Assembly (NCBI GenBank): GCA_016187515.1
Contig: JACPJN010000007.1
Location: forward strand, 68,046 to 132,045
Origin: Candidatus Uhrbacteria bacterium
GTDB lineage: Bacteria > Patescibacteriota > Patescibacteriia > GWA2-47-26
Direction of reading: 5' to 3'
Length of the DNA: 64,000 bases
The translations under genes were made by a program, and so were the position numbers. The stretch's first letter is position 1. Every line of letters starts with the position of its first letter. A model generated the notes under the pieces. It worked only from the letters and a program-made list of their open reading frames with translations. It had not been told where the DNA came from and searched no databases. This document shows positions 583 through 50,128 of this stretch, in pieces.

Positions 583-620
583 CAATCCCCCTCTCTTAAG
601 ATAAGAGAGGGTGGGGTGAG
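583..620. repeat. Family-1 single hairpin (ccctctcttaag/ataagagaggg), intergenic
   Basis: Perfect stem visible in the sequence. Confidence 0.6.
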
Positions 621-13821: not shown

Positions 13822-16800
13822 TTAATCTAAGGCCGCCCCCTCCTCGACTAGCACTCCACCGGAAAGAGTGGAGATGTTGCACTGATTGTCACAATAGGTA
13901 CAGCCCACTAAACCATAGCCCGGCGTACACCGAGTCCCATTGGAAGTTCCTTCATCACATTCCTCTGGATCAGTACACCGGCCACGACCGCAATCCTGGT
14001 CGCGCCGACAGGTCACGCCGTCACGATTACGATCGCCAGTGCCCACACACACCAGTCCCTGATTGAATCCGTCGCCACATTTTGCGTGCTTGCAGTCGTT
14101 AATGCAGCCATCCGCATTTTCCGCCGCATCGTTTTGCCCGTCGTTCGTGGTTCCATCGTCACACTGCTCATTTCCTTCGCGCGCGCCATTGCCGCATTGT
14201 CCTTGGGCAACTGTAGTGAGACCGCCCCAACGACATGGACCACCACTACGGCAGGCCTGCCGCCAGAGATACGGGTAGCCCTCGGGCTCTGTAAACTGTT
14301 GACTGTCATAAACATGCGTTCCATCCCACTGGATTGGCCCAGTAAATTTACAGCTACCAAATGACGTATCGCAATCAGAATCTTGGCGGCAGGGCTTTCC
14401 AAAATCCGAAGCCCCCCACACCCACATACACACCTGTGGACTCTGGCGAGTATCTCCCGCTTCGCACTGCTCATTCCACTCTTCCTGTATCTCATTGTCT
14501 CCGCACCGCGCCCCTGGCCCGGAGCAGTCAAACCGACAACACCCATAATCGCCATTGACACATGCTGCACCGCTGGAATTTGTAGAATCACATACTTCGG
14601 GTCCATTGCGCGTACCGTCGCCGCAATAGGCACTAAGTGCGGTTGCTGAACATTGACCCCACGGGAAACAATTATTATCCTCGGTGCAGATATTTCCCTG
14701 ATTAGGCCCCCCGATGCAGGTCCTAGCGCATACCGTATTGCACTTGCCATACTGACCATTTAACAGCCCATCATCACATACTTCGCTTCCTTCTCTTATG
14801 CCATTACCGCAGATTACGCCGCCTTGGCATATGTCAAGGTTGGATGTCGGGTTTTGGGATCCACCCCATATTTGCCAGTCAGTCACCTGCGGAGCATCAT
14901 TCCACTCGCACCTATTCGTGCACGCCCGTACTGCCTGGCACTGCGATGAAAGAATACAAACCCCTTCATTGTCAGCGCAGTTTTCATCATTAACACACTC
15001 CTTCGAAGGATTCAAACTGCATGAACGCAACGGAACACATGAAGAACCTCTCGCATGCAACGTACAGGTTGAACCAGAATCTGGGAACCTTGGGGCTGTT
15101 GATATTACCCCGGTTTCTGGATTACACCTTTGCCGAAATCCCCCCTCAAAGGGGGCACCAGGGTCACCACAGTATCCAAACCAACGGGCTTGCTGGACCT
15201 CTTCCTGCCCCACTTCGCAGAATTCCTGGCAATTATTCACCCCGCACGAAACCCCGGGATAATTTGCGCAGGTTCCGTCCGGGAGACATTCACCACGTTC
15301 AAGAATTCCATTGCCGCAGGTCGCCGTGGCATTGGACCATAATCCCCCGGCTGGCGCGCCCGGCGCGCTCACCCAGGAACAATTGCTCGGGGTTAGCAGG
15401 TTGGTTCCCGCCGGATCAAAATTAAACACTTCCCAGCGGCTCTGCCCGGGAGCTGGCGGACGATACAGCAGTTCAAAATCTACGCCCAATTCATAGTCCA
15501 CTGCCCCAATCGCGCGATACTGATACACGTGGGATCCAGCCGGACAGCGGTAGGTTTGGGTCTGTTCATTCCAGCAAGTCGCGGGATCAAATTGCCCGCG
15601 CTCGCCTGGAATCGCGGCACAGCCCGGCGCGAAGCTATTGAGCGGATCTTGCGGCAAGGAGGCGCCCAATGTTGCGCCAAGCGTGGCCTGCCAAGAAGGC
15701 CATTTGGAGGTGGACATGGAACGGATAAAAGTGCCGGCCTGAAGCGGCGGATAGCGTCCGTGAGTATTGCGGTAATCCTCCAGTGCGGATTGTATCGAAC
15801 TGATATGATTTAAACGCAATAGATCTCGGCGCAGCTTGTCTCGGTTGGAGTTCTCGACATTCACATTAAGCTGGAAGTTGGAAACAAACTGGTCAAACAC
15901 TTGCTGCATCGCGCTGGGCGCGTTTTCAGAAAGCGAAAGCACGTAGATATTGCTGTACACTACTTTTAATGTGGGGACGTACCTATCAGTAACCGCGTTT
16001 GTGCCAGCGACATACACCGTATTCCGGTCCCGGATCGCCTCATAACCATCCACCCCGGGATTAATTGGCGCCGGAGTTCCAGTAAAGCCCATTTGCTCAT
16101 ACCAAGTTCTGACCGGCAAACGCCTCGGGTTTGGAAATACCCGAATTCCAATGGCCTGCTGTTTTTCTGCTGATTCAACCAAAAGATACTCCTTCAGCGG
16201 AGCAGGGCCAGTATGGCTGGTGGCGATACGGAAGGTGTCCAAAGTAACCGGCGCACCCTCGTCCGCGCCTGCCGCGGGAGGACGAATCGCGCCCGGGTAA
16301 ATTAAAGCCGGCAAATCGCCTGCGAGGCCCTCCTCACCACTGTCGCGGCAGTACCAAGTGCGAAAATTCATGGGGTCTCCTCCGCCAAGGAGTGCGCCTT
16401 CGCGATCCTCAAACCGCGGCAAGGGGTGCTCAATACGCGATGGCCAGGGATTTTCGCACAGCGTGGTAATAAATTCCGCGCTCCCCTCGCGCACCGCGTC
16501 CTGATGATCCTCCGGCTGCGGAAGCGCGCTGGCGTCAGTAATTGTGGCAGTGGCATTCACGTCCGTCTCGCCATTGCGATTCCCGGCAGTTACGGTTTGA
16601 TCTGGATCAGCGTTGATCGGATCCGCAGCGTTGATGGGATCCGGCTCATTGGTAACGCTGGCCACGGTATTTTCCGCTGATCTCCAGGACCAGGCCCAGG
16701 AATATCCGGTTGTCCGCTGCAGCGCCTGCCCGCTGCTGGAGAGCGCCTCGGCCCGAACTTGGGCCTGCTGCCCGGGACGAGAAAAACCCGCGCCGCCTTC

Positions 16801-19800
16801 TCCTTCAAAAATGCTCACCGCTTCATCCGCGCCAGTTACGTTAACGCGCACGTTTTCCACGGTACAGATCTCGGATCCGGTAGTGAAGTTCCAACTTGAA
16901 TCTGTTCCGCCTTCGGCAGCGGGACCGCGGAAGGCCACGCCGAAAATCGAGCGCACTCCAGAAGCGATCAAATCATTAAGGTTCGGGTCGCCAGCAATGG
17001 TGATCTGATAATCTGTCGCGTTATCCAAAATCCGCGAAGGTTGCAGGACTAAACGACTCCCCTGTGCTGCCGATTCAACCGACGCCTTTAAGCTCAAGGA
17101 CGGATCAGCGCACCACACCGAATTTCTTGCCCGGCCCTGAAGAGTCAGGCCATCCGGACACGTCGCAGTGTTTTCAACACGCTTGGCAATTCCGATCGCT
17201 TGATCAAGATTTGCGGAATCCATGGGTTGATCAAAAGTTACTTCCAAAAGTCCATTGGGACAGGCGTCTGGCGTATTGATGCCCGGCACGCGCTCCACAA
17301 TTTTCGGGCGAAGATAACAACAGTTGTCGCTCCCGCGGCCCACGGCCTCGGATGGCCCTTGTCCGGGCGTTGGACAATCGGCTTCGCTGCGGGCCACGCA
17401 AAATACGGTAATACTGGCGCTGCCCGGCGCGCCCGCTTGTCCCTCCACCGCCGCCTCTACCGCCACCGTACTCCAAGGATTAGGCGGAGCGCAGACCGGA
17501 AAATTCTCATCCGTACAATTGCCATTGCTGCTACAGGGCGCGCGCGGTTCCTTAAATTCTCCGGTCTCTTTGCGGCAGAACTTCCGAATCCCCAAGGCCC
17601 TGGCTTGCTGAATTGGATCAATGCGCCGAGGCGACTCCGCAACCGTCCCTTCATTAAGACAGCGCGCGGAACAGCCGTCTCCGGCAGCCGTATTGCCATC
17701 ATCACAGTCCTCAAAACGATCAATCCTCCCATTGCCGCAAAACGGCGAAGGAGTTCCTTCATTAAGACACCGGGATGAACAGCCATCGCCATTGGCGCGA
17801 TTATTTAACTGATCGCATTCTTCACCGGCCTCCACTAATCCGTTGCCGCAGGTGGAAACCGGAAGAGTGCCTTTTAAAAGACACGTGGCTGGGTCGCAGA
17901 ATTCCGAAAGAAGGGGGGCACCTAAAAGGTCGCGGTAACGCTGCTGGTCTTCGGGATCACATTCTTCCCCGCGATCAATCTGCCCGTTTCCGCAAGTAGT
18001 CGCCCGAGAAGTCCCTTCATTCCGACACTGCGTAGAGCAGCCATCGCCCGGTAAAACATTGCCGTCGTCGCAATCCTCGCCATTTCCGGGTTCCGGGTCT
18101 CCGCCACTGCCGCAGCAATTGGTTTGCTCCGGAGCGACACAGCGCGCCAGCGCTCCGGCGTGCAGACAACTCGCGGTGCACCCGGGCAAGCCGGGCGGGT
18201 CGCATTCCTCGCCCGGATCAATAATACCATTCCCGCAGGCGAATCTTCCGAGAATTCCCGCGCTGGATCCCTCGTTTAAACACTGCGCTAAACAGCCATC
18301 GCCATCTATTAAATTTCCGTCATCGCAATCTTCCGCGTATTCCCGCACCCCATTGCCGCAGGAAGGCAAACGATCCACTCCGGTCCGCACTACTCCGGCA
18401 ATCATGGTATTGCCCACCACGCCGGCGACCCGATCATCTTCTTCAAGTTCCGGATCGTCAATCTTCCAACCCCAATCGTAGGACAGCGAATTTAAGCGCT
18501 GGCCCTGCGGATCGCAGGCATCCGGAGCGCTCCGCGGCTCCGCGGAAAAACTCGCGCGCGCGCCGATAAGATAGAGCGCGGCTTGCGGAGGGCTTAATTC
18601 CACGCGATCAACCTGACAGGATGACGCGCCGGTTTTAAAGGTCCAAGAAAAAGTATTGCACTGCGCGCCCGCGCACTTCCCTGGCCCGGGAGCGAGCATC
18701 GCTCCGGTTATCGCGTCACGGCCGGCCCAATTGTAGGAAAAGTTCAGTCCGGCCAGCGGCTTGCCCGGTACGGAGCTGTCGCGGCGGCTTGAATGTAGGC
18801 CAGCGCTGCCGCCTTTGAGTAAAACCCGATAAAAAGTATTGGGCAGTAAGAGATCTTCTCGCGCCGAGGTGGCCGGGTTATCGGTAAGTCCGATCTCCAG
18901 GGTATTTTCTGCGCTCTTCCAAGAAAGTGCGGGGCTCAAAACTCGCTCCGCCAAGCGGCCGGGTTTAAGACAGCGGACGGTGCAGAGCGGATCACGCTCG
19001 CCCCCATCGCAACCGATATCTTCGCCATTGTCCAGCACGCCATTGCCGCAAAGCGCGGGTTCGGATCCCTCGTTTAAGCACTGCGGTAAGCAGCCATCGC
19101 CGGAAAGGCGATTGCCATCATCACAATCTTCCGCGTACTCGCGCAAACCATTGCCGCATTGCGCGAAACGCGTTCCTTCATTAAGACAATTGGGGGAGCA
19201 GCCATCGCCCGCGTTGGTATTGCCGTCATCGCAATCCTCCGCTTCCGAGGCAAGGATCCCATCGCCGCAAGCCGGTACTGACCCGGCGGCAATTGAACCT
19301 TCATTAACACATACTTCGGAACAGCCGTCTCCGGGCCGCAGATTGCCGTCATCGCAGTCCTCGCCCAGTTCAATGCGGCCATTGCCGCAGCCCTGACCTC
19401 CGGCGGAAGAGGGACGACGCGTGCCGGTCCACTGACAAATACTGGTGCAGAGATTGCGCTTGGCCGGGGTGTTTAAAAGCGGCGAATTAGGGTCGCACTC
19501 CTCGCCCGGATCAATCTGGCCATTGCCGCAAAGCAGCGGACTTACCGGATTGCCCCGCCTTAAACAGTCCTGCGGATCGCACCACGACGCAAATTCGTGA
19601 TCAAAATTCACTTCACATTCCTCGCCCGCTTCCAAACGGCTATTGCCGCAAACCGCGAAGTTCGAACTGGTCCCCTCGCGAAGGCATTGCGCGGAACAGC
19701 CATCTCCGGCTTGTCGATTCCGATCATTATCACACTCCTCACCCGGATTAATTTTACCGTTTCCACACAGCGCGGGTCCGGTTCCCTCGTTTAAACACTG

Positions 19801-22800
19801 CGACGAACAGCCATCGCCGTTTTCCAGGTTGCCATCATCACAATCTTCTCCGCGGTCAAGACAGCGGCCGCCTTGGCAGCTCTCTCCTGGCCCGCACTCG
19901 GAAGCATTGCGGCACGCCCGTCCGTCTCCGCAGCGCAGAGAAAAGTTTGATCCCTCATTAAGACAAACTGCGGAACAGCCGTCTCCGGAAGTCGTGTTGC
20001 CATCATCACACTCTTCTCCCGTCTCCACGCTGCCATTGCCGCAAGGCACGGCCCAGAGTAACGCGTTTTGAACATTGGTCACGCTTTGGGGATGCAAAGT
20101 GTTTGAGGAGGTAAACATGGCCACATTAAACCGCGCGGCAATCTTGGCGTTGGTACAGGCCTCTCCGCAAGCCGGCCACCATTGTATTACTTGCGGGTCC
20201 ATAAATGAAATCTTGAGCTTCCCAAAACCGGTGGTCCGTGGGGGCTGCGGCGGAGTATGCGCGCGGACTCTGATCTCTTCGCCTTGGGTGTCTTCCAAGG
20301 CAATTACGGTTACGGTCCAGGGCATGTGCTTACAATACCCTCCAACACAGGCCTCGGTCACGCAAGTATTGGGCTGACCGCCGCAGTCGGCATCTACCTG
20401 GCACGGCGCGTCGTAATTGTTGGAACAATGGCTGTACCCGATCGCGCACTCCGCGTCTTCACTACAGGCCTTGCCGATCGCCGGGGAAATTCCGCTGGAA
20501 TTATAAGTAACCGCCGCGCGCTCCGGATTCTCCGTATCATAGACATCCCAGGCCCACGAATAGTCGTCCGACGACGGCACTACGCAAGGATCGTCAAGCG
20601 CCACGGGAATTGCTAAATAATCAATCGGCTCATTTTCCGTAGTGGCCTCATAAGGGCTGGGCACCACCGCGATCCCGCCGACTTGACAAAGATTATTGTC
20701 CGGATTGGACTCGTTTTTGGTTTGAAACGCAAAACAGTACGCGGCGCGCGCGTCTCCGCAGCGGGATAAGCCGTCTGGAAGCGGGATCATGGGCTGGCCT
20801 TGAAGAGCGCCGCGATCTTGCGCGGTAATTCCTCCGGTCCCGCCCAAAAGTACCACGCGATACCAGGAACCGGCTGAAAAATTATCCGACAGCCAGAAAC
20901 TAAATCCTAATCCGCCGGAATACGGCCCAAATTTACGGCCGAGCGCCTGATCTTCAACTTGGCTGCAGGCCTCCCCTTCAATCTGGACATCATCAACATA
21001 AACCGCGAAGTCCTCTCCGGAACTCGCCTCCTCGCCAACCTCATAAGGATCGCCTTCCAAAAATACGCGCACATAGCCGGGAGCATTGCCATTAGGACTG
21101 GCATCAAAGGTCATGGTTACCGACACCGGCTGCCACTCATTGGTGAGCGTAATTTCGGACCGAACTTTTTGCCAAAAACCACGGGTGGCCAGACAGGTCC
21201 TTTGTCCGGCATTGGTTTGGCTCGCGCACCCGGTGTCCGCAGTACAAGCCACTCCGCCGGATATTCCGCCGCAACGCATTCCGTCAGCGCCGCCCGCGCG
21301 TTGAATTAAAATTCCGGCGCGCTTCCCCGCCCCCGCGGCATCAACCGCTTTCATCCACGCGGTTGCCGTATATATTTTCCCGCTGGTATCGGCAATGGCA
21401 TTGGCTTGGTACCCAAACCAATGCTCATAATTTTGTTGCAGTCCGCGAGTATCTCTCCATCCTGGGCCGGTGTCGTTGTCCAGCTTGGTAAGGGCGAGCG
21501 CAAAATTGCCCGGATCCGCACTAGAAGCGCCGCGCCCAGCGCCTAGCACGGTTTCCACCCCCAACAAATCCTCGTGGCGAAGGTTTGTCGGCGGATCCAG
21601 CGTGGGCTCTGGCGGGCGGCCCCACACGGCAGTATCCGCGGTGAAATTCGGACTTCCAAAAGTGGTGTCCGCGCCATTCAACAGTTCGGTCGGCGCCGTG
21701 CACTTTTGGAGCTTAATCGTCTGCGAATTTAAGGTCGCCGGATCAACCCGGGCGTCCGGATTAAAACTCACTGCCACGGCCGCGTTAACGCATACTCCGG
21801 TATTTGATCCTCTTCCGGATTCGACAGCCGGCGACGGCGAAGGCGGATATTGCGGAAAACCTTCCGCGTCGGCTGCTTTATCGCATCCTTCAAACACCGT
21901 CGGGGTAAGCGGGGCCTGGGAGGTGGTAAACTGCCAAGCAAACGCGGACTCCCCGGGCTGCGCGCCAGCGCAGTCCGCCCTACAAGTTCCGTCTCCACAG
22001 CAAGTCAGACCTCCGAGCGCGGCGCAATCCAAGCGCGCTTCATCAGGGGCCGGCAACCGGCAATCACCAACCAAAAACGTCCGCAAATTCGAAGCGCGCG
22101 TGATCTGGCCTCCTCCAGCTTGCGGAAAATCATTTTGTATAATTACCTCTCCGGCTGGAGTCCCAGCCACGGTGTTTCCGGGCACTTGCGCGCATACTTC
22201 TTGCGCGTCCCAGCCACCGCGCGGACAAGCATCCAAACGGATACCTCCGACATTGGTGAGCGTGGCCGGTAAAGTCGGCGCCCAGGACTGATCCGCGGAA
22301 CTCCTGCGCGCCGTAAATAGCGCCCCGCGGCCGGAAGCCGGCGCGGATCCAAACCGATCTCCAAAAATGCTGACATTGGTAAACGTTGGGCCGGAGGCCG
22401 GCTCAATACAAGCTAAAAATGGCGCGGCTGACTCTTGATCTAAAACATCAAAATCCTTGGGACTGGACTGCTGACGATCATAACGCTGCACATAAAGGTA
22501 GGCGCCATCATCAAAAAGAAGATCGGAGGCGCTGCCATCTTCATCCGCGTCGTGGATATCCAAAATGCGCGGCACTTTAACCGTGATCTGTATTGGACTC
22601 CACCAACTGCTCCCGCATTGCGAAGGAAAGTCCACGTTTCCCTGCACTCCTCGCCCATCGGAAGTAACAAACCAAACCATTCCGGGGGTATCGCCGAAAT
22701 TCCGTCCGGAAATGGTGCACCCGGCCCCTGGCCCGCCGCGCGCCGGATTATCTTCCGGCGCGCCCGCGCAAACTACCGTCGTAATAATTGGCAAAGTGCC

Positions 22801-24813
22801 GGCATCCGGAGAAAGCACGGTAAAGGGAAGGGCGTTGGAGGGAACTTTTTCGGTGTTTTCAACTTGCACCTGGGTTGGGCCAAATGCCAGCGCCGGCACG
22901 CGGCTTAAAATGGCAGTCGCGGACCAGGCGTCCACGGCGCCCGGCTGTCCGCCAAACCGCGCTTGCGCCCGCAGAATCTGCTTGCCCAGGCGGCGGGTCT
23001 GCTCGCCAAACTGCACACCGGTAATATTCACTGGCGCATTCCAAAGCCCGGCGATTGGATTCACGCTGCAAATCCCGGGGTGCTCCACCTCGTTTACTTC
23101 AAATAAACCGGTCGGAGTTGACGATCCGCGCGGCGGGGGATGAACCGGAACGATCGGGCCCCGCGAGTCATTGCTGGTGTCGCGGCACAGATTATCATTG
23201 TCCGCACACCCATCAGCGACCACCGTAACCGGCCCGACCTGCGCGCCCTCCGGAAGACCGACTAAAATATAATTATCAGACCAGGTCGTGTTACCCGCGC
23301 AGGCCTCCGGAGCTTGAGCGCGGACTCCGTTATGGAAAAATGCCGCGCCCGGGGTCTGGCCAAAATTTAATCCGGCGACCGTCACGAGTGTCCCGGCTTT
23401 ACCGTCTCCCGGAGAAATGCCGGTAATCGTCAAGGGCGTAGTGCACTCTTTATCTCCATCACCATCTAGATCCGTGCAAACCCCGCCGGAACATTGGATA
23501 TTATCCGTACAACTGCTGCCGTCGCACAATCCGCAGCCGGAGGGGCCGTCTGCCGCGCTATCGCAATTCGGCCCATCTTCATCATCATCTTGAAGCGGGA
23601 ACCCTAACTGGTCGCGATTAAAGCAGTGACTGGGACGGACGATCACCCGCACCGGAGCAGACCATACCGCGTTATCATCAATATCAAAAGCGCGCGCGCG
23701 CAACTGATGCTGGGCCGGAGCCGGCGGATTCGCCGGAAAACATGGTAAGGTTAAAATAATTTCCAGCGGATAAGTGCCTTCCGGCGGAGTAAGCAGGCCG
23801 TCTAGAAGTGCCGTCCCATCCGCATAGATTTCCACGTGCTCCACTCCCCCATCATCTTTGACTCTGACCTGAACCGGCACGCAAGTGTCCACTTCCACTG
23901 CCGCGCCGTCATCCGGCGACTCAATAGTTACTTCCGGCGGCGCCACATCAATAATACTTCCCGAACGAAACTCTACCCGACAAGTTGGCGCAAATCCGCC
24001 GCAAAGCAAATCCCGGCCATCAAAGCGTTTGACGCCGTCCGCCCCGTCTCGGATCTGCACCACAAATTCAGTATCCGCGTCAAAACAGCGCCGATCTTGA
24101 TTCGGTTCCGGACACGCCGCGGATGGGCGCAATTCTACGATATTGCCAACCACGGCCGCCGGCTCCAAGGCAACCGCTGCGCCGCTGTCTTTGCGCGTAA
24201 GGTTCAGATTTCCGGCCAGGGTCTCCGGGTCGGGCGCGCCGCTAAAAAATACCCGTACCACAATGTTGCGAATCGGCACCGCTCCGGAAGGGGCAATGCG
24301 CCGCACGATAAACGCGTCGGACGGTAAAAACGGGCAATCCGGTCCGGGACAGCGAACATCCGCGGGAATCGTGAGCGGCCCTCCGGCCGCTAACTGTAAA
24401 CGATTCAATACGAATTGGACAATTCCAAACGCCGAAAGAATAATCGCGAGTCCAATCACGGAATTAACCAGCACTTTTTTGGCCTTGTCAATTTGCTCTT
24501 CATTGCCGGCCGAAGTCAGCCATAAAAAACCGCCGTAAAGAATCAAGGCCACGGCCACCAGACCGAGAAAACCCAGCGCCACGCGAATGATGCGCGCCAC
24601 AATCACTCGCGGATCAGCCGTGGGCAAAATCAGTCCGGCTTGCCCGGGAACCGCCGCGATCTCTGCGCCGGTTTGAATCTGGGAAGGCAGCGGCACGCCT
24701 TGAGCCAGCGCCGTCGGAATGGAGAATGCAGAATGAAGAATGAAGAATAAGAAAATCACTACAAACCAGCGAAATATCCATCGGCAATGTTCAATCCGGC
24801 ATTCTAAATTCAT
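13822..24813 (-). CDS. Giant (3663 aa) secreted or surface protein: N-terminal T4SS-pilin-like (VirB2/TrbC-like, two TM helices) domain, Ig-like domains, about 20 Myxococcus-type cysteine-rich repeats, and an internal type IV pilin/GspG-like globular segment
   Basis: Uninterrupted 10,992-nt ORF. N-terminus is signal peptide, then LGFLGLVAVALILYGGFLWLTSAGNEEQIDKAKKVL, then IGLAIILSAFGIV. Contains CGNGxxExGEECDDGNxxxGDGCS repeats and SIQSALEDYRNTHGRYP. Confidence 0.9.
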   Translation of the reverse strand: MNLECRIEHCRWIFRWFVVIFLFFILHSAFSIPTALAQGVPLPSQIQTGAEIAAVPGQAGLILPTADPRVIVARIIRVALGFLGLVAVALILYGGFLWLTSAGNEEQIDKAKKVLVNSVIGLAIILSAFGIVQFVLNRLQLAAGGPLTIPADVRCPGPDCPFLPSDAFIVRRIAPSGAVPIRNIVVRVFFSGAPDPETLAGNLNLTRKDSGAAVALEPAAVVGNIVELRPSAACPEPNQDRRCFDADTEFVVQIRDGADGVKRFDGRDLLCGGFAPTCRVEFRSGSIIDVAPPEVTIESPDDGAAVEVDTCVPVQVRVKDDGGVEHVEIYADGTALLDGLLTPPEGTYPLEIILTLPCFPANPPAPAQHQLRARAFDIDDNAVWSAPVRVIVRPSHCFNRDQLGFPLQDDDEDGPNCDSAADGPSGCGLCDGSSCTDNIQCSGGVCTDLDGDGDKECTTPLTITGISPGDGKAGTLVTVAGLNFGQTPGAAFFHNGVRAQAPEACAGNTTWSDNYILVGLPEGAQVGPVTVVADGCADNDNLCRDTSNDSRGPIVPVHPPPRGSSTPTGLFEVNEVEHPGICSVNPIAGLWNAPVNITGVQFGEQTRRLGKQILRAQARFGGQPGAVDAWSATAILSRVPALAFGPTQVQVENTEKVPSNALPFTVLSPDAGTLPIITTVVCAGAPEDNPARGGPGAGCTISGRNFGDTPGMVWFVTSDGRGVQGNVDFPSQCGSSWWSPIQITVKVPRILDIHDADEDGSASDLLFDDGAYLYVQRYDRQQSSPKDFDVLDQESAAPFLACIEPASGPTFTNVSIFGDRFGSAPASGRGALFTARRSSADQSWAPTLPATLTNVGGIRLDACPRGGWDAQEVCAQVPGNTVAGTPAGEVIIQNDFPQAGGGQITRASNLRTFLVGDCRLPAPDEARLDCAALGGLTCCGDGTCRADCAGAQPGESAFAWQFTTSQAPLTPTVFEGCDKAADAEGFPQYPPSPSPAVESGRGSNTGVCVNAAVAVSFNPDARVDPATLNSQTIKLQKCTAPTELLNGADTTFGSPNFTADTAVWGRPPEPTLDPPTNLRHEDLLGVETVLGAGRGASSADPGNFALALTKLDNDTGPGWRDTRGLQQNYEHWFGYQANAIADTSGKIYTATAWMKAVDAAGAGKRAGILIQRAGGADGMRCGGISGGVACTADTGCASQTNAGQRTCLATRGFWQKVRSEITLTNEWQPVSVTMTFDASPNGNAPGYVRVFLEGDPYEVGEEASSGEDFAVYVDDVQIEGEACSQVEDQALGRKFGPYSGGLGFSFWLSDNFSAGSWYRVVLLGGTGGITAQDRGALQGQPMIPLPDGLSRCGDARAAYCFAFQTKNESNPDNNLCQVGGIAVVPSPYEATTENEPIDYLAIPVALDDPCVVPSSDDYSWAWDVYDTENPERAAVTYNSSGISPAIGKACSEDAECAIGYSHCSNNYDAPCQVDADCGGQPNTCVTEACVGGYCKHMPWTVTVIALEDTQGEEIRVRAHTPPQPPRTTGFGKLKISFMDPQVIQWWPACGEACTNAKIAARFNVAMFTSSNTLHPQSVTNVQNALLWAVPCGNGSVETGEECDDGNTTSGDGCSAVCLNEGSNFSLRCGDGRACRNASECGPGESCQGGRCLDRGEDCDDGNLENGDGCSSQCLNEGTGPALCGNGKINPGEECDNDRNRQAGDGCSAQCLREGTSSNFAVCGNSRLEAGEECEVNFDHEFASWCDPQDCLRRGNPVSPLLCGNGQIDPGEECDPNSPLLNTPAKRNLCTSICQWTGTRRPSSAGGQGCGNGRIELGEDCDDGNLRPGDGCSEVCVNEGSIAAGSVPACGDGILASEAEDCDDGNTNAGDGCSPNCLNEGTRFAQCGNGLREYAEDCDDGNRLSGDGCLPQCLNEGSEPALCGNGVLDNGEDIGCDGGERDPLCTVRCLKPGRLAERVLSPALSWKSAENTLEIGLTDNPATSAREDLLLPNTFYRVLLKGGSAGLHSSRRDSSVPGKPLAGLNFSYNWAGRDAITGAMLAPGPGKCAGAQCNTFSWTFKTGASSCQVDRVELSPPQAALYLIGARASFSAEPRSAPDACDPQGQRLNSLSYDWGWKIDDPELEEDDRVAGVVGNTMIAGVVRTGVDRLPSCGNGVREYAEDCDDGNLIDGDGCLAQCLNEGSSAGILGRFACGNGIIDPGEECDPPGLPGCTASCLHAGALARCVAPEQTNCCGSGGDPEPGNGEDCDDGNVLPGDGCSTQCRNEGTSRATTCGNGQIDRGEECDPEDQQRYRDLLGAPLLSEFCDPATCLLKGTLPVSTCGNGLVEAGEECDQLNNRANGDGCSSRCLNEGTPSPFCGNGRIDRFEDCDDGNTAAGDGCSARCLNEGTVAESPRRIDPIQQARALGIRKFCRKETGEFKEPRAPCSSNGNCTDENFPVCAPPNPWSTVAVEAAVEGQAGAPGSASITVFCVARSEADCPTPGQGPSEAVGRGSDNCCYLRPKIVERVPGINTPDACPNGLLEVTFDQPMDSANLDQAIGIAKRVENTATCPDGLTLQGRARNSVWCADPSLSLKASVESAAQGSRLVLQPSRILDNATDYQITIAGDPNLNDLIASGVRSIFGVAFRGPAAEGGTDSSWNFTTGSEICTVENVRVNVTGADEAVSIFEGEGGAGFSRPGQQAQVRAEALSSSGQALQRTTGYSWAWSWRSAENTVASVTNEPDPINAADPINADPDQTVTAGNRNGETDVNATATITDASALPQPEDHQDAVREGSAEFITTLCENPWPSRIEHPLPRFEDREGALLGGGDPMNFRTWYCRDSGEEGLAGDLPALIYPGAIRPPAAGADEGAPVTLDTFRIATSHTGPAPLKEYLLVESAEKQQAIGIRVFPNPRRLPVRTWYEQMGFTGTPAPINPGVDGYEAIRDRNTVYVAGTNAVTDRYVPTLKVVYSNIYVLSLSENAPSAMQQVFDQFVSNFQLNVNVENSNRDKLRRDLLRLNHISSIQSALEDYRNTHGRYPPLQAGTFIRSMSTSKWPSWQATLGATLGASLPQDPLNSFAPGCAAIPGERGQFDPATCWNEQTQTYRCPAGSHVYQYRAIGAVDYELGVDFELLYRPPAPGQSRWEVFNFDPAGTNLLTPSNCSWVSAPGAPAGGLWSNATATCGNGILERGECLPDGTCANYPGVSCGVNNCQEFCEVGQEEVQQARWFGYCGDPGAPFEGGFRQRCNPETGVISTAPRFPDSGSTCTLHARGSSCVPLRSCSLNPSKECVNDENCADNEGVCILSSQCQAVRACTNRCEWNDAPQVTDWQIWGGSQNPTSNLDICQGGVICGNGIREGSEVCDDGLLNGQYGKCNTVCARTCIGGPNQGNICTEDNNCFPWGQCSATALSAYCGDGTRNGPEVCDSTNSSGAACVNGDYGCCRFDCSGPGARCGDNEIQEEWNEQCEAGDTRQSPQVCMWVWGASDFGKPCRQDSDCDTSFGSCKFTGPIQWDGTHVYDSQQFTEPEGYPYLWRQACRSGGPCRWGGLTTVAQGQCGNGAREGNEQCDDGTTNDGQNDAAENADGCINDCKHAKCGDGFNQGLVCVGTGDRNRDGVTCRRDQDCGRGRCTDPEECDEGTSNGTRCTPGYGLVGCTYCDNQCNISTLSGGVLVEEGAALD

Positions 24814-24832
24814 AATTCTTCATTCTCAATTC

Positions 24833-26896
24833 TCAAAATCCGCACGGCCCAGCTTGCGCCACGCCATTGCAACAATAAGGAGTGGCTGCCGTGAGATCTC
24901 CTTGACACTCGCCTGACGGGAAATAACAATTCTGGAAAAGATCTTTAACGTCCGAGTCAATCCGACTGGTATAATCGGTTTCTTCCCAAAGTCCGCCGTT
25001 TAAAATATCCGCCCGGGTTTGTCCATACGGGAAATCATCCAAATCCTCGGCCAGATTTTGACTGCCCACAGTCCACCAAGTGTCCCAGAACCCGCCGGTT
25101 AGCTTATCAGTGCCGGCCAAGTTCAGATTTCTGGAATTAAGCGTCGCGGCCGCCATGGCTCGGTTAAAGGTAATGCCCAAGGTCGTCTGTAAAGGCACTC
25201 CCGGCGTAACTGCACCGGCGGTCACCGTGGGAGTCGTGAGCGTTACCTCGGGCGCCCCGAGCAAAATCTCGTGGGAAGTATAAAATGACCAACGCACGTT
25301 ATCACCTCTGGCCGGATTTTCCGCGTTACGGCTAAAGAAAGTCGTCTCTGCTAAATCACCCGGGCCTTGCGCGGCGCCATTGCCATTGCCATCCAGCGAA
25401 TTGCCCGCGACATCTTCTATGCCGTCCAAGCCACCGGACGAGGTCGGACCGCCTTGGGAAGACAGCGTGGCGGCCAGGACCTCCCCGCGAATCTGACGGC
25501 CGCCCGGCAAGCAAAACACGTCTCCGCCGCAAGAATTAACCGCGCACCGATCTTGACTGATAAATTCCGCGGTCTGGTATTGATTGGCCAGCTCAAACCG
25601 ACCGGCCACAAAACGATACTGATTATCCGGGGCTGGCTCGGAGACCCGCATGATCTGATAGGTTCCCTTCTTAATCTCCCCTTGGTCAGTAACCGCGGTT
25701 ACTCCCGAGGCCACGGTCGGCAGAATCGGTTCGCTGAAATTAATCTGGACAATGGAGTTGCGCGGAACATCTTTTCGGCAGGGCGGACTGGCGCACGCGC
25801 TTTCATCTCCGGCATTATCCGGCAGCGGAATTACGCTGGTGATGCGCGGCGGAGTCAAATCTAAAAAGGTGCCGACTTCAAACGACCACTGATAATCCGG
25901 AAAGCGCCCGGCAAACGCGGGTAGGCCGTTTAAGAGTTTAATCCCCTCCCGCCGACAATTACCTCCGCGGGAAGCGGTGCCGCATAAATAGACCGTGTAG
26001 GGGGTGTCTTCTTCCGCGCTGCCAAAATAAGCCCGCTGCGCGTGGTTATCGCGAGATACCGGCGTGAGCACCAAAGTGCGCAAATCGGTAAAACTTACCA
26101 GCACGTCCGCGTCTCCGGCCGCGCTTCCCAAATACCGATCCTTATCGCTTTCGCGCACCGAACCCTCAATATCGGCGGTGCGGATAATTTGAATCGCGTC
26201 CGGACGCAGCGTCAGTCCCGGAACTGACTTACGTGTATCAATTACGCCATCTTGATCCGCGTCCACCGCGTCAAAATACTGCGGGTTACCTTGCGCGTCT
26301 TTTGCGAGAGTATCCGCAAAACTCGCCGGATCAACCGCGTCTTTAAAAGTAATCAAAATTCGCACGTTGCGCGGAACTCCGCGTTGTCCGCGAGTGGGAT
26401 AATGGCTCTCCACCATGCCGGAACCGAGCGCTCCTCCGCCAACTCTTGCGGCGGCAGCGGAGGGCGGCGGCAAGGGCGGCGCCTCCAATCCGGAGGTCAG
26501 CGCGCGCAGCACAAACAAAACAATGCCATAAGCCGAAAGAATAATCGCGAGCCCAATGGTCGCGTCAATCAACACCTTTTTGGCTTTTTCAATCTGCTCT
26601 TCATTGCCGGCCGAGGTCATCCAAAGATACCCGCCCCAAAGAATTAAGATGAGCGCCACGACCCCTAAAAACCCTAATGCCACTTGAATGATCTTAGCCA
26701 CAATCACCCGCGGGTCACTCACGGGCAAGATCAGTCCGGCCTGCCCGGGGACTGCCGCGATCTCCTCCCCGGTGCGGATCTCGAGGGTAGGCGGAATTTG
26801 CGCCGCGACAAAAACCGGCCATACCAAAAGTACGCCTAGGGCTATGGTAATGATTATCGCCTGAAATCGACGCATGTAATCCCAGATTATGCTCAA
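24833..26896 (-). CDS. 687-aa secreted protein with the same N-terminal T4SS-pilin-like domain plus Ig-like domains; paralogous to the N-terminus of the giant protein
   Basis: TGEEIAAVPGQAGLILPVSDPRVIVAKIIQVALGFLGVVALILILWGGYLWMTSAGNEEQIEKAKKVLIDATIGLAIILSAYGIV. Sits 20 nt upstream of the giant gene on the same strand. Confidence 0.85.
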   Translation of the reverse strand: MSIIWDYMRRFQAIIITIALGVLLVWPVFVAAQIPPTLEIRTGEEIAAVPGQAGLILPVSDPRVIVAKIIQVALGFLGVVALILILWGGYLWMTSAGNEEQIEKAKKVLIDATIGLAIILSAYGIVLFVLRALTSGLEAPPLPPPSAAAARVGGGALGSGMVESHYPTRGQRGVPRNVRILITFKDAVDPASFADTLAKDAQGNPQYFDAVDADQDGVIDTRKSVPGLTLRPDAIQIIRTADIEGSVRESDKDRYLGSAAGDADVLVSFTDLRTLVLTPVSRDNHAQRAYFGSAEEDTPYTVYLCGTASRGGNCRREGIKLLNGLPAFAGRFPDYQWSFEVGTFLDLTPPRITSVIPLPDNAGDESACASPPCRKDVPRNSIVQINFSEPILPTVASGVTAVTDQGEIKKGTYQIMRVSEPAPDNQYRFVAGRFELANQYQTAEFISQDRCAVNSCGGDVFCLPGGRQIRGEVLAATLSSQGGPTSSGGLDGIEDVAGNSLDGNGNGAAQGPGDLAETTFFSRNAENPARGDNVRWSFYTSHEILLGAPEVTLTTPTVTAGAVTPGVPLQTTLGITFNRAMAAATLNSRNLNLAGTDKLTGGFWDTWWTVGSQNLAEDLDDFPYGQTRADILNGGLWEETDYTSRIDSDVKDLFQNCYFPSGECQGDLTAATPYCCNGVAQAGPCGF

Positions 26897-27033: not shown

Positions 27034-27342
27034 CTATCCACCTGCAAATACTCTGAAGCCATGTGACATGAGTTCTGTCTCTGCTGGAGTGGCTGTGCAC
27101 AGACCGTACAAGAAGGCGGTGAGCACTACCGTGATAAACGCACTGCTAGAGAGATTGGGATACCTCTCTACGAAGGCAATCACTACCCAGACCAGCAATC
27201 CAGTACCGGGGAACATAAGGAGCAAACCTAGACCTTCATCGAGATTCGCCATGGAGACCTCCTCGATTATCAGTGTACAAAAGAAGATGATAAATGTCAA
27301 CGCATACTTTCTGCCGTTCCACCTCACCCATCCATACGACAC
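27034..27342 (-). CDS. Small hydrophobic membrane protein, hypothetical
   Basis: 102-aa ORF with 3 predicted TM segments. Confidence 0.4.
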   Translation of the reverse strand: MSYGWVRWNGRKYALTFIIFFCTLIIEEVSMANLDEGLGLLLMFPGTGLLVWVVIAFVERYPNLSSSAFITVVLTAFLYGLCTATPAETELMSHGFRVFAGG

Positions 27343-27353
27343 AAAAACAACCT

Positions 27354-27387
27354 AACAAAATAAGGTCCGGCCGGACCTTATTTTGTT
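27354..27387. repeat. Perfect 34-bp palindrome aacaaaataaggtccgg|ccggaccttattttgtt (bidirectional terminator-like), copy 1
   Basis: Identical copy at 28094-28127. Confidence 0.85.
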
Positions 27388-27480
27388 ATACACAGTTTTG
27401 ACTTATTTTAGACAATTTTATACTTTAGACTATCGACTCCTTTCAATCACGGCGTCCTCCACTCCCTAATCACACTCCTT

Positions 27481-27497
27481 TGTGATATAATTCCTAC
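27481..27497 (+). promoter_or_regulatory. Extended -10 promoter (TGaTATAAT); ATG about 3 nt after the predicted TSS, so leaderless
   Basis: tgtgatataat ttcctacact ATG. Confidence 0.45.
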
Positions 27498-27500
27498 ACT

Positions 27501-28103
27501 ATGTCCGGCGCACCTCCTACACAATCCGCACAATCAAAAGAGCGGCTCGCTGATGTGCGGGATTATCTTCATGGTCTTGCGGAATGGGCGGAGTGGGCAA
27601 GCTCGGGTAAGGCCTGGATGAGCATCGCAGAGTATCAGGATTGGAAACGCCGCGAGATCATGAGAGAGAAAAAAGAAATGCTCTATGAACTAAAGCGTCG
27701 TAAATGGATTGAAACTAAAACCATCGGTAAGCGACTGGTGGGACGGCTCACCGAAGCCGGATGGCAGATGGCGCTGCGAAATCGGATACGGAACGAGGAC
27801 AAAAAATGTACCAGCGGTAACTGTTTTATAATTTTTGATATTCCCGAATCACAACGGTATATACGAAAACTGTTAAGACAGTTCATCAAAGAATGCGGCT
27901 TCAAGCGATTACAACATAGTGTATGGATTACTGACAAAGATGTGGCAAAACCTCTCCTACTCCTTCTTCAACGCCGCAAACTCAATCGCTGGGTCCAGAT
28001 AATCCAGGGTCACGTACTTACCTCTTCCACAATCGACACTATCCGAGCTATAAGGACCACTGCAAATACGAATACTTCTCATTTATATCATCCAACAAAA
28101 TAA
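27501..28103 (+). CDS. PaaX-like protein: N-terminal winged-helix plus C-terminal Cas2-fold domain
   Basis: CFIIFDIPESQRYIRKLLRQFIKECGFKRLQHSVWIT matches the Cas2/PaaX_C beta1-alpha1-beta2 pattern. The stop codon lies inside the downstream palindrome. Confidence 0.55.
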   Translation: MSGAPPTQSAQSKERLADVRDYLHGLAEWAEWASSGKAWMSIAEYQDWKRREIMREKKEMLYELKRRKWIETKTIGKRLVGRLTEAGWQMALRNRIRNEDKKCTSGNCFIIFDIPESQRYIRKLLRQFIKECGFKRLQHSVWITDKDVAKPLLLLLQRRKLNRWVQIIQGHVLTSSTIDTIRAIRTTANTNTSHLYHPTK

Positions 28104-28127
28104 GGTCCGGCCGGACCTTATTTTGTT
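28094..28127. repeat. Perfect 34-bp palindrome, copy 2 (identical to 27354-27387)
   Basis: Exact match to copy 1. Confidence 0.85.
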
Positions 28128-28151
28128 GCTAACCTTACATACTAGAATACT

Positions 28152-48497: not shown

Positions 48498-48560
48498 GGT
48501 AAATCAGGCGAGGCAGGTGAATCAAGCTCTTGATTTACTTGATTTACTTGATTTACTTGC
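48498..48560. repeat. Family-2 palindromic word-repeat
   Basis: gggtaaatcaggcgaggcaggtgaatcaagctcttgatttacttgatttacttgatttac. Confidence 0.8.
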
Positions 48561-50050: not shown

Positions 50051-50128
50051 GGTAAATCAAGTAAATCAGGCGAGGCAAGTGAATCAAGCGCTTGATTTAC
50101 CTGATTTACTTGCTTCACTTGATTTACC
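50051..50128. repeat. Family-2 palindromic word-repeat
   Basis: ggtaaatcaagtaaatcaggcgaggcaagtgaatcaagcgcttgatttacctgatttacttgcttcacttgatttac. Confidence 0.8.

What the first reader, a model, noticed from the sequence alone, without database searches (positions are those of the whole stretch)
27354..28127. Cas2-fold/PaaX-like gene cassette flanked by two identical perfect 34-bp palindromes, with a leaderless promoter
The same palindrome (aacaaaataaggtccgg|ccggaccttattttgtt) occurs immediately upstream and overlaps the stop codon of a 200-aa ORF. Its C-terminal half has the Cas2/PaaX_C pattern (hydrophobic beta1 FIIFDI, then RKLLRQFIKECGFKRLQHSVW). An extended -10 (TGaTATAAT) ends 9 nt before the ATG. 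No cas1 gene or CRISPR array is nearby. The identical bidirectional terminator-like flanks suggest an insulated or mobile cassette.
Basis: partly seen in the sequence, partly recalled or inferred. Interest (0 to 1): 0.6.

Follow-up and report, generated by a model that had tools for sequence, protein, structure and literature searches.

The report
Regulator gene bracketed by own operators
A small DNA-binding protein of an uncultured Uhrbacteria bacterium (a short relative of the PaaX repressor, often mislabelled Cas2) has its gene bracketed by two copies of a 34-bp palindrome that is most likely its own binding site, and the same layout recurs across this large protein family.

Summary
Two identical perfect 34-bp palindromes (27354-27387, 28094-28127) bracket a 200-aa ORF (27501-28103). 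The ORF has an extended -10 nine nt before the ATG and no Shine-Dalgarno.

The fold claim holds. Pfam PaaX_M scores E 7e-13. The AlphaFold model (pLDDT 93.6) best matches E. coli PaaX, then many Cas2 structures. There is no PaaX effector domain, cas1 or CRISPR array.

The flanks are not generic terminators or cassette scars. All 18 distinct family loci with both flanks readable, from several Patescibacteria lineages, have a pair of roughly 30-42 bp dyad-symmetric sites bracketing the gene. The sites match within a locus and differ between loci.

Conservation is tripartite: a GC core, a variable spacer, and outer half-sites about 29 bp apart. This resembles the PaaX operator TGATTC-N27-GAATCA. 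Distant members' sites do not fold as hairpins. Paralogs in one genome share the core but differ in the outer arms and in the N-terminal domain.

Best reading: a short PaaX-type autoregulator bracketed by its own operators. Here the downstream copy probably also acts as terminator. Recent mobility is not supported. DNA binding is inferred, not shown.

The parts
27354..27387 (.). Upstream copy of the 34-bp perfect palindrome, read here as a putative operator. It lies in the divergent region between a minus-strand small membrane-protein gene and the regulator gene. Its centre is 131 nt upstream of the ATG.
   Evidence: as RNA it folds at -22 kcal/mol, z -6.5; the minus-strand scan flags it as terminator-like
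27483..27491 (+). Extended -10 promoter element TGaTATAAT. Nine nt separate it from the ATG and there is no Shine-Dalgarno, so the transcript is leaderless or nearly so.
   Evidence: the same arrangement (-10 hexamer 6-12 nt before the ATG) is seen in L019, L001, L020, L021, L026 and L027
27501..28103 (+). Gene for a 200-aa short PaaX-like protein (NCBI HYW17_03325, Candidatus Uhrbacteria).
   Evidence: AlphaFold pLDDT 93.6; Foldseek top hit E. coli PaaX 8a39
27624..27791 (+). N-terminal DNA-binding region, residues about 42-97: a long helix, a beta-hairpin wing and a helix (winged-helix-like), including the invariant LKRRK..E motif.
   Evidence: secondary structure; weak wHTH hits to DUF6293_C (E 1e-3) and to the CARF-wHTH PADLOC model (E 6.5e-5); invariant columns
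27819..28019 (+). Cas2-like ferredoxin-fold domain, residues about 107-173, equal to Pfam PaaX_M. D113, P115, R122 and S140 are invariant in 68 diverse members.
28094..28127 (.). Downstream copy of the palindrome. It overlaps the stop codon and sits 25 nt before the yraN ATG. Read here as a putative second operator that probably also serves as the gene's intrinsic terminator: a 16-bp stem, a 4-nt loop (GGCC) and a U-rich 3' side.
   Evidence: RNA fold -23.2 kcal/mol, z -6.75
28152..28556 (+). Context only: the YraN/UPF0102 nuclease-family gene immediately downstream. The regulator-yraN order is conserved in L001 and L019. In L001 a third variant site follows yraN.
27034..27300 (-). Context only: the divergent small membrane-protein ORF (probable ATG at 27252 preceded by GAGGAGG) with a promoter-like site TTGACA-17-TACACT at 27300-27272.

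Best explanation
The ORF encodes a short PaaX-type DNA-binding protein. It has an N-terminal winged-helix region and a Cas2-fold domain, which in PaaX is described as the dimerisation motif. It lacks the C-terminal effector-binding domain of PaaX.

I propose that the protein binds as a dimer to the 34-bp dyad-symmetric sequence. The two winged helices would read the outer half-sites (AACAAAAT...ATTTTGTT, centres about 29 bp apart). The GC-rich centre (GGTCCGGCCGGACC) would be contacted by conserved parts of the protein.

Two copies of this operator bracket the protein's own transcription unit. Occupied sites would therefore set its own level, either by pairing of the two bound dimers (a roughly 740-bp loop) or by acting as roadblocks at both borders.

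In this Uhrbacteria clade the spacer is also self-complementary. The downstream copy therefore very likely doubles as the intrinsic terminator of the leaderless mRNA. It also sits right in front of yraN.

**Shown here:** the fold, the domain make-up, the conserved site-gene-site layout, the tripartite conservation, and paralog-specific outer arms.

**Inferred:** that this protein is what binds the sites, that it binds as a dimer, and looping or autorepression.
For: 1. **Fold.** Pfam PaaX_M scores 49 bits against a cutoff of 24, and all 68 diverse members hit PaaX_M. Two AlphaFold models (pLDDT 79.5 and 93.6) both give E. coli PaaX 8a39 as the top Foldseek hit over 125 columns, followed by dozens of Cas2 chains.
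2. **Site-gene-site layout.** Matching dyad-symmetric sites bracket the gene in 18 of 18 distinct loci with both flanks readable. Protein identity to the window protein goes down to about 30% and the lineages include Uhr-, Davies-, Doudna- and Berkelbacteria. Among 410 control pseudo-genes from the same DNA the median flank-match score is 10 and the 95th percentile 13. Real loci score 11-39, with 12 of 16 at 15 or more.
3. **Specific linkage to the gene.** No further copy occurs in the 64-kb window or in the 18-20.5 kb fetched around each of six long loci, at up to 10 mismatches of 34.
4. **Binding-site-like conservation.** Identity between the two copies, and dyad symmetry, are high at 1-7 nt from the centre. 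Both dip at 8-11 nt, rise again at 12-17 nt, and fall to background beyond 19 nt. The E. coli PaaX operator is TGATTC-N27-GAATCA (PMC9493321).
5. **Hairpin not conserved.** The window sites fold with z about -6.5, but the L023 and L025 sites give z -2.0 and +0.1.
6. **Paralogs in one genome.** P0172 and P0175 have a nearly identical C-terminal half (2 differences in residues 101-180) and a diverged N-terminal half. They share the core TGTCCGGCCGGACA but have different outer arms. P0213 and P0238 share the core ACGGCCGT, with outer arms AGACAAAT versus TTTCAAAC.
7. **Closest syntenic relative.** L019 (71% protein identity) keeps the outer arms and has two symmetric double changes in the core.
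8. **Promoter overlap.** In L009, L021-L024, L026 and L027 the upstream site overlaps the promoter or start region, with the centre 12-47 nt from the start. That is the classical position for autorepression.
9. **Sites elsewhere.** In MAG JAHISC01 the same 22-nt core flanks a 39%-identical homolog (L009). It also occurs on two other contigs, once directly in front of a maf-like ORF.
Against: - No binding experiment exists, and no dimer-DNA model could be computed here.
- In the window and in L001 the upstream site centre lies 131-135 nt upstream of the start codon. It does not overlap the promoter, so simple promoter occlusion cannot be the mechanism in this clade.
- 34/34 and 38/38 identity between the two copies (window, L001) is more than a transcription-factor site needs. 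It suggests an added hairpin constraint or gene conversion between the copies.
- The N-terminal region does not reach any Pfam winged-helix threshold.
- Asp113, equivalent to the Cas2 metal-binding Asp, is invariant. A pure dimerisation role does not explain that.
- The source genome was apparently not in the genome collection. The copy number of the palindrome is therefore known for only 64 kb of a contig of at least 318 kb.
Confidence: 0.6

Rival explanations
1. The palindromes are only bidirectional intrinsic terminators that insulate a small stand-alone gene. Gene conversion between the two hairpins 740 bp apart keeps the copies identical. The encoded protein does not bind them.
For: In the window both copies form a 16-bp stem with a 4-nt loop, flanked by A-rich and U-rich tracts (-22 to -23 kcal/mol, z about -6.5). 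The scan flags the upstream copy as terminator-like on the minus strand. The downstream copy overlaps the stop codon, which is a natural terminator position. Perfect identity including the spacer fits homogenisation. A gene-conversion tract ending in a site core is seen in L021/L022.
Against: - The upstream copy lies between divergent genes and has nothing to terminate.
- In L027 the upstream giant gene has its own separate hairpin before the site.
- In distant members the sites do not fold and their spacers are neither conserved nor complementary.
- In L026 the gene sits inside the dcw cluster between ftsI and murE. Terminators there would be polar.
- This rival does not explain why the same gene family always lies between the sites, or why paralogs have their own outer arms.
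Confidence: 0.15
2. The unit site-promoter-gene-site is a small mobile or selfish cassette. The palindromes are its ends or recombination sites, and the Cas2-fold domain with its invariant Asp acts as a nuclease or recombinase on them.
For: - The module is compact and self-contained.
- Across lineages it sits in unrelated housekeeping contexts: before yraN, inside the dcw cluster, before rplJ, before rpmG, next to glmS.
- Some genomes carry two paralogs.
- A palindrome at both ends is at once a direct and an inverted terminal repeat.
- Asp113 aligns with the Cas2 catalytic Asp and is invariant.
- A hybrid site shows recombination ending at the core.
Against: - No transposase or integrase is present in the module or nearby (gene tables).
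- Synteny is conserved at 58-71% protein identity in the Uhrbacteria clade.
- One identical protein shows a single context across the 10 places shown of 24 contigs read.
- There are no hits in IMG/VR, GenBank phages or PLSDB plasmids.
- No empty site was seen, but none could be searched for.
- The core motif is conserved across distant lineages, so the flanks are not duplicated target DNA.
Confidence: 0.12
3. The protein acts on RNA. Its RRM-like Cas2 fold binds the hairpin at the 3' end of its own mRNA, or hairpins in neighbouring transcripts, and controls stability or termination.
For: Cas2 and VapD relatives include RNases (Foldseek hits). The downstream palindrome is transcribed and folds strongly.
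Against: The upstream copy lies upstream of the promoter and would not be part of the gene's mRNA. Hairpin potential is absent in distant members. The tripartite pattern with a variable, non-complementary spacer does not fit an RNA stem. The best full-length structural match is a DNA-binding repressor.
Confidence: 0.05

Closest known systems
PaaX, the phenylacetyl-CoA-responsive repressor of E. coli and Pseudomonas (PDB 8a39, 3l09; Pfam PaaX_N/PaaX_M/PaaX_C)
   Same: It has an N-terminal winged-helix region followed by a Cas2-like central domain. It is the best structural match and PaaX_M scores above threshold. PaaX represses its own promoter and binds two 6-bp inverted half-sites separated by 27 bp (PMC9493321). 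That size is similar to the 34-38 bp sites here.
   Different: The window protein has no C-terminal effector (PaaX_C) domain. It ends about 30 residues after the Cas2-like domain, and none of the 68 members hits PaaX_C. There are no paa catabolic genes nearby. The sites have an additional conserved GC-rich core, and two copies bracket the regulator gene itself. PaaX_N is not detected by sequence.
Cas2 of CRISPR-Cas adaptation modules (Pfam PF09827, TIGR01573)
   Same: It shares the ferredoxin-like beta-alpha-beta-beta-alpha-beta fold. An Asp at the end of beta1 aligns with Asp10 of SSO1404. NCBI names many family members 'CRISPR-associated endonuclease Cas2'.
   Different: The window protein is twice the size, with an N-terminal DNA-binding region. 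It scores below the Pfam Cas2 threshold: 19.7 against 23.8 bits. No cas1, other cas gene or CRISPR array was found in the window or within +/-10 kb of seven annotated loci. The Cas2 name is a misannotation.
Phage repressors flanked by their operators, such as lambda CI with OL and OR, and 186 CI with flanking sites (from general knowledge)
   Same: A repressor gene lies between two operator regions bound by its own product, and distant sites cooperate by DNA looping.
   Different: This is an analogy only. The fold is unrelated, there is no phage context, and looping is not shown here.
REP sequences flanking RAYT genes (from general knowledge)
   Same: A single-copy gene is flanked by genome-specific palindromes that co-vary with the protein.
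   Different: REPs are dispersed in tens to hundreds of copies, and RAYTs are Y1 (HUH) transposase relatives. Here the sites are essentially confined to the gene and the fold is PaaX/Cas2.
Integron gene cassettes with attC sites (from general knowledge)
   Same: An ORF lies between two similar imperfect palindromes that have conserved boxes and a variable centre.
   Different: There is no intI and no cassette array. The cassette always carries the same gene family, and the gene has its own promoter.

Membership tests
CRISPR-associated Cas2 | Ferredoxin-like beta-alpha-beta-beta-alpha-beta fold of about 90-110 aa | tested here: met
   The fold is met for residues about 107-173. DSSP order is E107-112 H116-131 E135-138 E141-144 H149-158 E165-170, and many Cas2 chains appear among the Foldseek hits. 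The protein as a whole is 200 aa with an extra N-terminal domain.
CRISPR-associated Cas2 | Conserved Asp at the end of beta1 | tested here: met
   D113 aligns with the Asp of 'LIFYDI' in SSO1404 and is invariant in 68 members.
CRISPR-associated Cas2 | Score above the curated family thresholds | tested here: inconclusive
   PF09827 scores 19.7 bits, below the 23.8 cutoff. TIGR01573 scores 24.8 against a 24.5 cutoff, but only over residues 110-142.
CRISPR-associated Cas2 | Genomic association with cas1 and a CRISPR array | tested here: not met
   There is no array in the 64-kb window. No Cas1 hit was found among ten of the window's 240-460-aa ORFs. No cas gene lies within +/-10 kb in seven annotated family loci.
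PaaX-type repressors | Central Cas2-like domain (Pfam PaaX_M, PF20803) | tested here: met
   49 bits against a cutoff of 24, E 6.8e-13; 68 of 68 members hit it.
PaaX-type repressors | N-terminal winged-helix DNA-binding domain (PaaX_N, PF07848) | tested here: inconclusive
   There is no PF07848 hit for this protein, though one family member (P0256) has it. The model shows a helix, a beta-hairpin wing and a helix. The Foldseek alignment to 8a39 spans 125 columns, more than the Cas2-like domain alone. Weak wHTH hits: DUF6293_C at E 1e-3 and CARF-wHTH at E 6.5e-5.
PaaX-type repressors | C-terminal helical effector-binding domain (PaaX_C, PF08223) | tested here: not met
   The protein ends about 30 residues after the Cas2-like domain. 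There is no PaaX_C hit in this protein or in any of the 68 members.
PaaX-type repressors | Linkage to phenylacetate catabolic (paa) genes | tested here: not met
   The neighbours are a small membrane-protein ORF, yraN, scpA, a YbaK-like gene and lon. No paa genes appear in the gene tables of related loci.
PaaX-type repressors | Binds inverted half-sites separated by about three helical turns and represses its own promoter | not testable with these tools
   The site geometry is consistent with this: outer half-sites at 12-17 nt on either side of the dyad, and promoter overlap in seven loci. Binding itself needs an experiment.
Bidirectional intrinsic terminator | GC-rich stem flanked by an A-tract and a T-tract, located at the 3' ends of genes | tested here: inconclusive
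   The hairpin and U-rich tails are present in the window. The downstream copy is at the gene's 3' end. The upstream copy lies between divergent genes, with no 3' end to serve.
Bidirectional intrinsic terminator | Hairpin potential conserved at the homologous positions of related loci | tested here: not met
   The L023 and L025 sites give z -2.0 and +0.1. Spacer positions 8-11 show only 0.53-0.67 dyad symmetry.
Dispersed palindromic repeats (REP/RAYT-like, MITE-like) | Many dispersed copies per genome | tested here: not met
   Only the two flanking copies occur in the 64-kb window and in the 18-20.5 kb fetched around each of six long loci. Low-copy extras occur in L001, L013 and MAG JAHISC01. 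Whole genomes could not be scanned.

The most novel reading that the evidence does not exclude
The wHTH-Cas2-fold protein is not only a regulator. Its invariant Cas2-type Asp would make it catalytically active on its 34-38 bp palindromes, which are about the size of CRISPR repeats. The repeat-gene-repeat unit would then be a self-maintaining or self-propagating module. It would be a free-living relative of the Cas2 adaptation subunit that recognises palindromic repeats by itself, in a phylum that largely lacks CRISPR-Cas.
Probability: 0.07. Interest if true: 0.85.

Novelty: new variant of a known kind. Interest (0 to 1): 0.55.

Why it matters
**Annotation.** The family is large: 4,847 clusters at 50% identity with E up to 1e-3, almost all 160-210 aa among the top 150. 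All source-named members are from Patescibacteria or unclassified MAGs. NCBI's pipeline labels many of them 'CRISPR-associated endonuclease Cas2'. Surveys of CRISPR-Cas in these lineages would count false orphan cas2 genes.

**Regulation in reduced genomes.** Each member comes with an easily recognised pair of cognate sites. The family therefore offers a ready-made set of predicted protein-operator pairs with natural specificity variants, including paralogs with the same core and different outer arms. These could be used to study how a PaaX-type scaffold reads DNA and to map regulons.

**Evolution.** The family adds a short form, without an effector domain, to the link between Cas2 and PaaX-type regulators.

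No paper in the searched library connects PaaX with Cas2 or with Patescibacteria.

Tried and rejected
- **Genome-wide count of the 34-mer.** The single genome-contig scan with the 22-nt core did not return the source genome. It returned only another MAG. The count is therefore known only for the 64-kb window.
- **Common terminator.** Rejected for the DNA available.
- **Recent mobility.** An identical protein (P0194) appeared to have different upstream contexts. These turned out to be runs of N inside a repetitive giant gene, so the context is the same.
- **Carriage on mobile elements.** IMG/VR gave no relative in two scans, and a third call failed for lack of a conserved stretch. GenBank phages and PLSDB plasmids gave no match. 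PHROGs gave nothing meaningful.
- **Defence system.** PADLOC gave only weak Cas2 and CARF-wHTH domain hits.
- **Integron cassette or attC, and REP/RAYT.** Considered and rejected; see the membership table.
- **Foreign island.** GC dips to 0.42-0.46 over 27150-28200, against 0.55-0.61 in the giant genes to the left. The housekeeping genes to the right are 0.45-0.54, so this is not a clear island.
- **The other long palindrome in the window (34280-34317).** It is single-copy, unrelated and sits between convergent genes.
- **Empty-site test.** A search for a related genome lacking the gene between the membrane-protein gene and yraN could not be run.
Full report
**1. The observation**

The window contains AACAAAATAAGGTCCGGCCGGACCTTATTTTGTT exactly twice, at 27354-27387 and 28094-28127. 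No further copy appears even at 3 mismatches, for the full 34-mer or for the 18-nt core, and none is expected by chance. Each copy is a perfect palindrome.

Among all perfect hairpins in the 64 kb with a stem of at least 10 bp, these two and one unrelated 38-mer at 34280 stand out.

The ORF 27501-28103 encodes 200 aa, and its TAA stop lies inside the second copy. TGaTATAAT occupies 27483-27491, nine nt before the ATG, with no Shine-Dalgarno.

The protein is identical to HYW17_03325 of a Candidatus Uhrbacteria MAG, on a 318-kb contig.

**2. The protein**

- Pfam PaaX_M ('PaaX protein central Cas2-like domain') matches residues 109-173 with 49 bits against a cutoff of 24.
- Pfam Cas2 is below threshold (19.7 against 23.8 bits). 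TIGR01573 cas2 is marginal (24.8 against 24.5 bits, 33 residues only).
- A weak winged-helix hit (DUF6293_C) covers residues 42-91.
- A profile of close homologs hits archaeal Cas2 SSO1404 in the PDB (E 0.004). D113 aligns to that protein's beta1 Asp.
- AlphaFold with 12 sequences gave pLDDT 79.5, and with 68 diverse sequences 93.6. The model has two long helices, a beta-hairpin wing and a helix, then a beta-alpha-beta-beta-alpha-beta domain.
- For both models the best Foldseek hit in the PDB is E. coli PaaX 8a39 (E 1.7e-4 to 4.4e-4, probability 1.00, 125 columns). Dozens of Cas2 chains and VapD follow.

The protein is a short PaaX-like form without the C-terminal effector domain. None of the 68 members hits PaaX_C.

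There is no CRISPR array in the window. No Cas1 was found among ten of its 240-460-aa ORFs. No cas gene lies within +/-10 kb of seven annotated family loci.

**3. The family**

An exhaustive HMMER search found 4,847 representative clusters at E up to 1e-3, and 1,485 at E up to 1e-10. Nearly all of the top 150 are 160-210 aa.

Named members come from Uhr-, Kerfeld-, Veblen-, Davies-, Doudna- and Berkelbacteria and from 'Patescibacteria group' MAGs. NCBI labels many of them 'CRISPR-associated endonuclease Cas2', and JGI labels some 'PaaX'.

D113, P115, R122 and S140 are invariant across 68 diverse members.

**4. The key comparative result**

I fetched 18 distinct loci in which both flanks can be read:
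- the window, L001, L004, L009, L010, L012, L013, L015, L017 and L018;
- L020 to L027.

Every one has a pair of roughly 30-42 bp dyad-symmetric sequences bracketing the gene, 540-804 bp apart. The two copies are alike within a locus and differ between loci. Examples:

| Locus | Site |
|---|---|
| L001 | TGAGCAAAAAAGCGTCCGA\|TCGGACGCTTTTTTGCTCA, twice |
| L012 | TTCAAAACATAGTGCGG\|CCGCACTGTGTTTTGAA |
| L022 | TCATTATCTAATTATGTCCGG\|CCGGACATAATTAGATAATAG |
| L023 | TAGACAAAT..ACGG\|CCGT..ATTTGTCT |
| L025 | CTCCCAAT..ACGG\|CCGT..ATTGGGAG |

As a control I scored 410 pseudo-genes of similar size from the same DNA. Their best upstream/downstream match had a median of 10 and a 95th percentile of 13. 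The high outliers probably come from repeats inside the repetitive giant genes. The real loci scored 11-39, with 12 of 16 at 15 or more.

No additional copy (up to 10 of 34 mismatches) exists in the window or in the 18-20.5 kb fetched around each of six long loci. The 'common genome-wide terminator' refutation therefore does not apply, within the DNA I could search.

**5. What kind of site**

I aligned all 36 sites on their dyad centre.

| Distance from centre | Dyad symmetry | Reading |
|---|---|---|
| 1-7 nt | 0.75-1.00 | core (CGGCCG, CGATCG, CACGTG types) |
| 8-11 nt | 0.53-0.67 | variable spacer |
| 12-17 nt | 0.69-0.92 | outer half-sites |
| beyond 19 nt | about 0.2-0.5 | background |

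Identity between the two copies at a locus follows the same profile.

This is the signature of a protein-binding site with two outer half-sites about 29 bp apart plus a central contact. It is not the signature of an RNA stem.

The published E. coli PaaX operator is TGATTC-N27-GAATCA, and PaaX represses its own promoter (PMC9493321).

As RNA, the window copies fold strongly (-22 to -23 kcal/mol, z about -6.5). The sites of distant members do not: L023 gives z -2.0 and L025 gives +0.1. In L027 the upstream gene has its own separate hairpin before the site.

**6. Natural specificity experiments**

- **Genome CAYGDX01.** It has two paralogs, P0172 and P0175. Their C-terminal halves are nearly identical (2 differences in residues 101-180), while the N-terminal halves have diverged. 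The sites share the core TGTCCGGCCGGACA, but the outer arms differ: CCGTCGTCACAAAT versus TCATTATCTAATTAT. The downstream site of L021 is a hybrid. The high-identity tract between the two loci ends at the core.
- **Complete Daviesbacteria genome CP066688.** It has P0213 and P0238, which are 69% identical. They share the core ACGGCCGT, with outer arms AGACAAAT versus TTTCAAAC.
- **Closest syntenic relative, L019.** The protein is 71% identical and the gene is also followed by yraN. The downstream site keeps the window's outer arms (AACAAAATAAG) but has GATGCGGCCGCATC in place of GGTCCGGCCGGACC. That is two symmetric double substitutions.
- **An unrelated low-GC MAG, JAHISC01.** It carries the window's 22-nt core on three contigs. 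One (L009) flanks a 39%-identical homolog, whose upstream site overlaps its start codon. Another lies directly in front of a maf-like ORF.

**7. Position relative to promoters**

Seventeen of 18 family genes lack an SD-like motif. In seven, a -10 hexamer lies 6-12 nt before the ATG (window, L019, L001, L020, L021, L026, L027). Leaderless expression therefore looks like a family trait.

In L009, L021-L024, L026 and L027 the upstream site centre is 12-47 nt from the start and overlaps the promoter core. In L026 the -10 lies inside the site.

In the window and L001 the upstream centre is 131-135 nt upstream of the start. In this clade the effect on the gene's own promoter must be indirect, by looping with the downstream copy or by a boundary function. 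Alternatively, the site may serve the divergent promoter at 27300-27272.

The downstream site is always 0-70 nt from the stop codon.

**8. Mobility**

Across lineages the module sits in unrelated housekeeping contexts:
- before yraN;
- between ftsI and murE;
- before rplJ;
- before rpmG;
- next to glmS.

Several results argue against recent mobility:
- The window, L001 and L019 are syntenic at 58-71% protein identity.
- One identical protein occurs in a single context across the 10 places shown of 24 contigs read. The apparent differences are N-gaps.
- No relative was found in IMG/VR, GenBank phages or PLSDB plasmids.
- No transposase or integrase accompanies the module.

**9. Conclusion**

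The finding is real and the fold assignment is right. The identical flanks are best explained as two copies of the cognate operator of a short PaaX-type, Cas2-fold DNA-binding protein that brackets its own, probably leaderless, transcription unit.

In this Uhrbacteria clade the sites are fully self-complementary. The downstream copy therefore probably also terminates the transcript.

Binding, dimerisation and looping are inferred, not shown.

The perfect 34/34 identity and the invariant Cas2-type Asp remain incompletely explained. They leave some room for a terminator-only reading (about 0.15) and for a catalytic or mobile reading (about 0.1).

The family is a new variant of a known kind. It is widespread in Patescibacteria, commonly misannotated as Cas2, and I found it undescribed in the literature I could search.

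Noticed in passing
window 34280-34317: A single 38-bp perfect palindrome, CGTTCCTCGATTTTCGCGATCGCGAAAATCGAGGAACG, lies between the 3' end of aspS (34330-35733, minus strand) and a small plus-strand ORF. There is one copy only, and it is unrelated to the finding's palindrome.
   Followed up: partly
window 589-611, 29264-29286, 29323-29345, 36269-36291, 36305-36327: A family of short hairpins of the type CCCCCTCTTA-nnn-TAAGAGGGGG (10-bp stem, 3-nt loop), twice in close pairs. This could be the genome's usual terminator or a REP-like element.
   Followed up: no
window 33139-33217, 48529-48559, 50091-50127, 60409-60458: Short tandem runs of a 9-mer (TACTTGATT / CTTGATTTA / AGTAAATCA) recur at several places. 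The first set sits just upstream of lon and next to a 97-aa winged-helix-like ORF (33212-33505, minus strand).
   Followed up: no
window 13822-26896: Two adjacent very large minus-strand genes (3,663 aa and 687 aa) encode similar hydrophobic, pilin-like N-termini. The larger has many Cys-rich 'DCDDGN..GDGCS..C..EG' repeats. These are typical giant surface proteins of Patescibacteria.
   Followed up: no
window 55194-56549 and 62264-63400: In the PADLOC scan run to exclude Cas1, a 452-aa ORF matches DpdF-type helicase models very strongly (E 1e-159). A 379-aa ORF matches the candidate defence family PDC-S01 (E 5e-50).
   Followed up: no
L026 10001-10501 (Daviesbacteria CP066688.1): A family member with its two sites sits inside the otherwise canonical dcw cluster, between ftsI and murE and on the same strand as the cluster.
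   Followed up: partly
L001 1507-1545: In the syntenic relative, a third variant copy of the local palindrome (same 24-nt core, different outer arms) follows yraN. As a result yraN is also bracketed by sites.
   Followed up: partly
L013 3487-3926: This locus has three site copies in tandem upstream of the gene, about 200 bp apart, plus one downstream copy.
   Followed up: no
family N-terminal region (window residues 42-91): The N-terminal region weakly matches the winged helix of CARF-wHTH (Csa3-like) CRISPR-associated regulators and Pfam DUF6293_C. Both domains of this family therefore have their nearest sequence relatives among CRISPR-associated proteins.
   Followed up: partly
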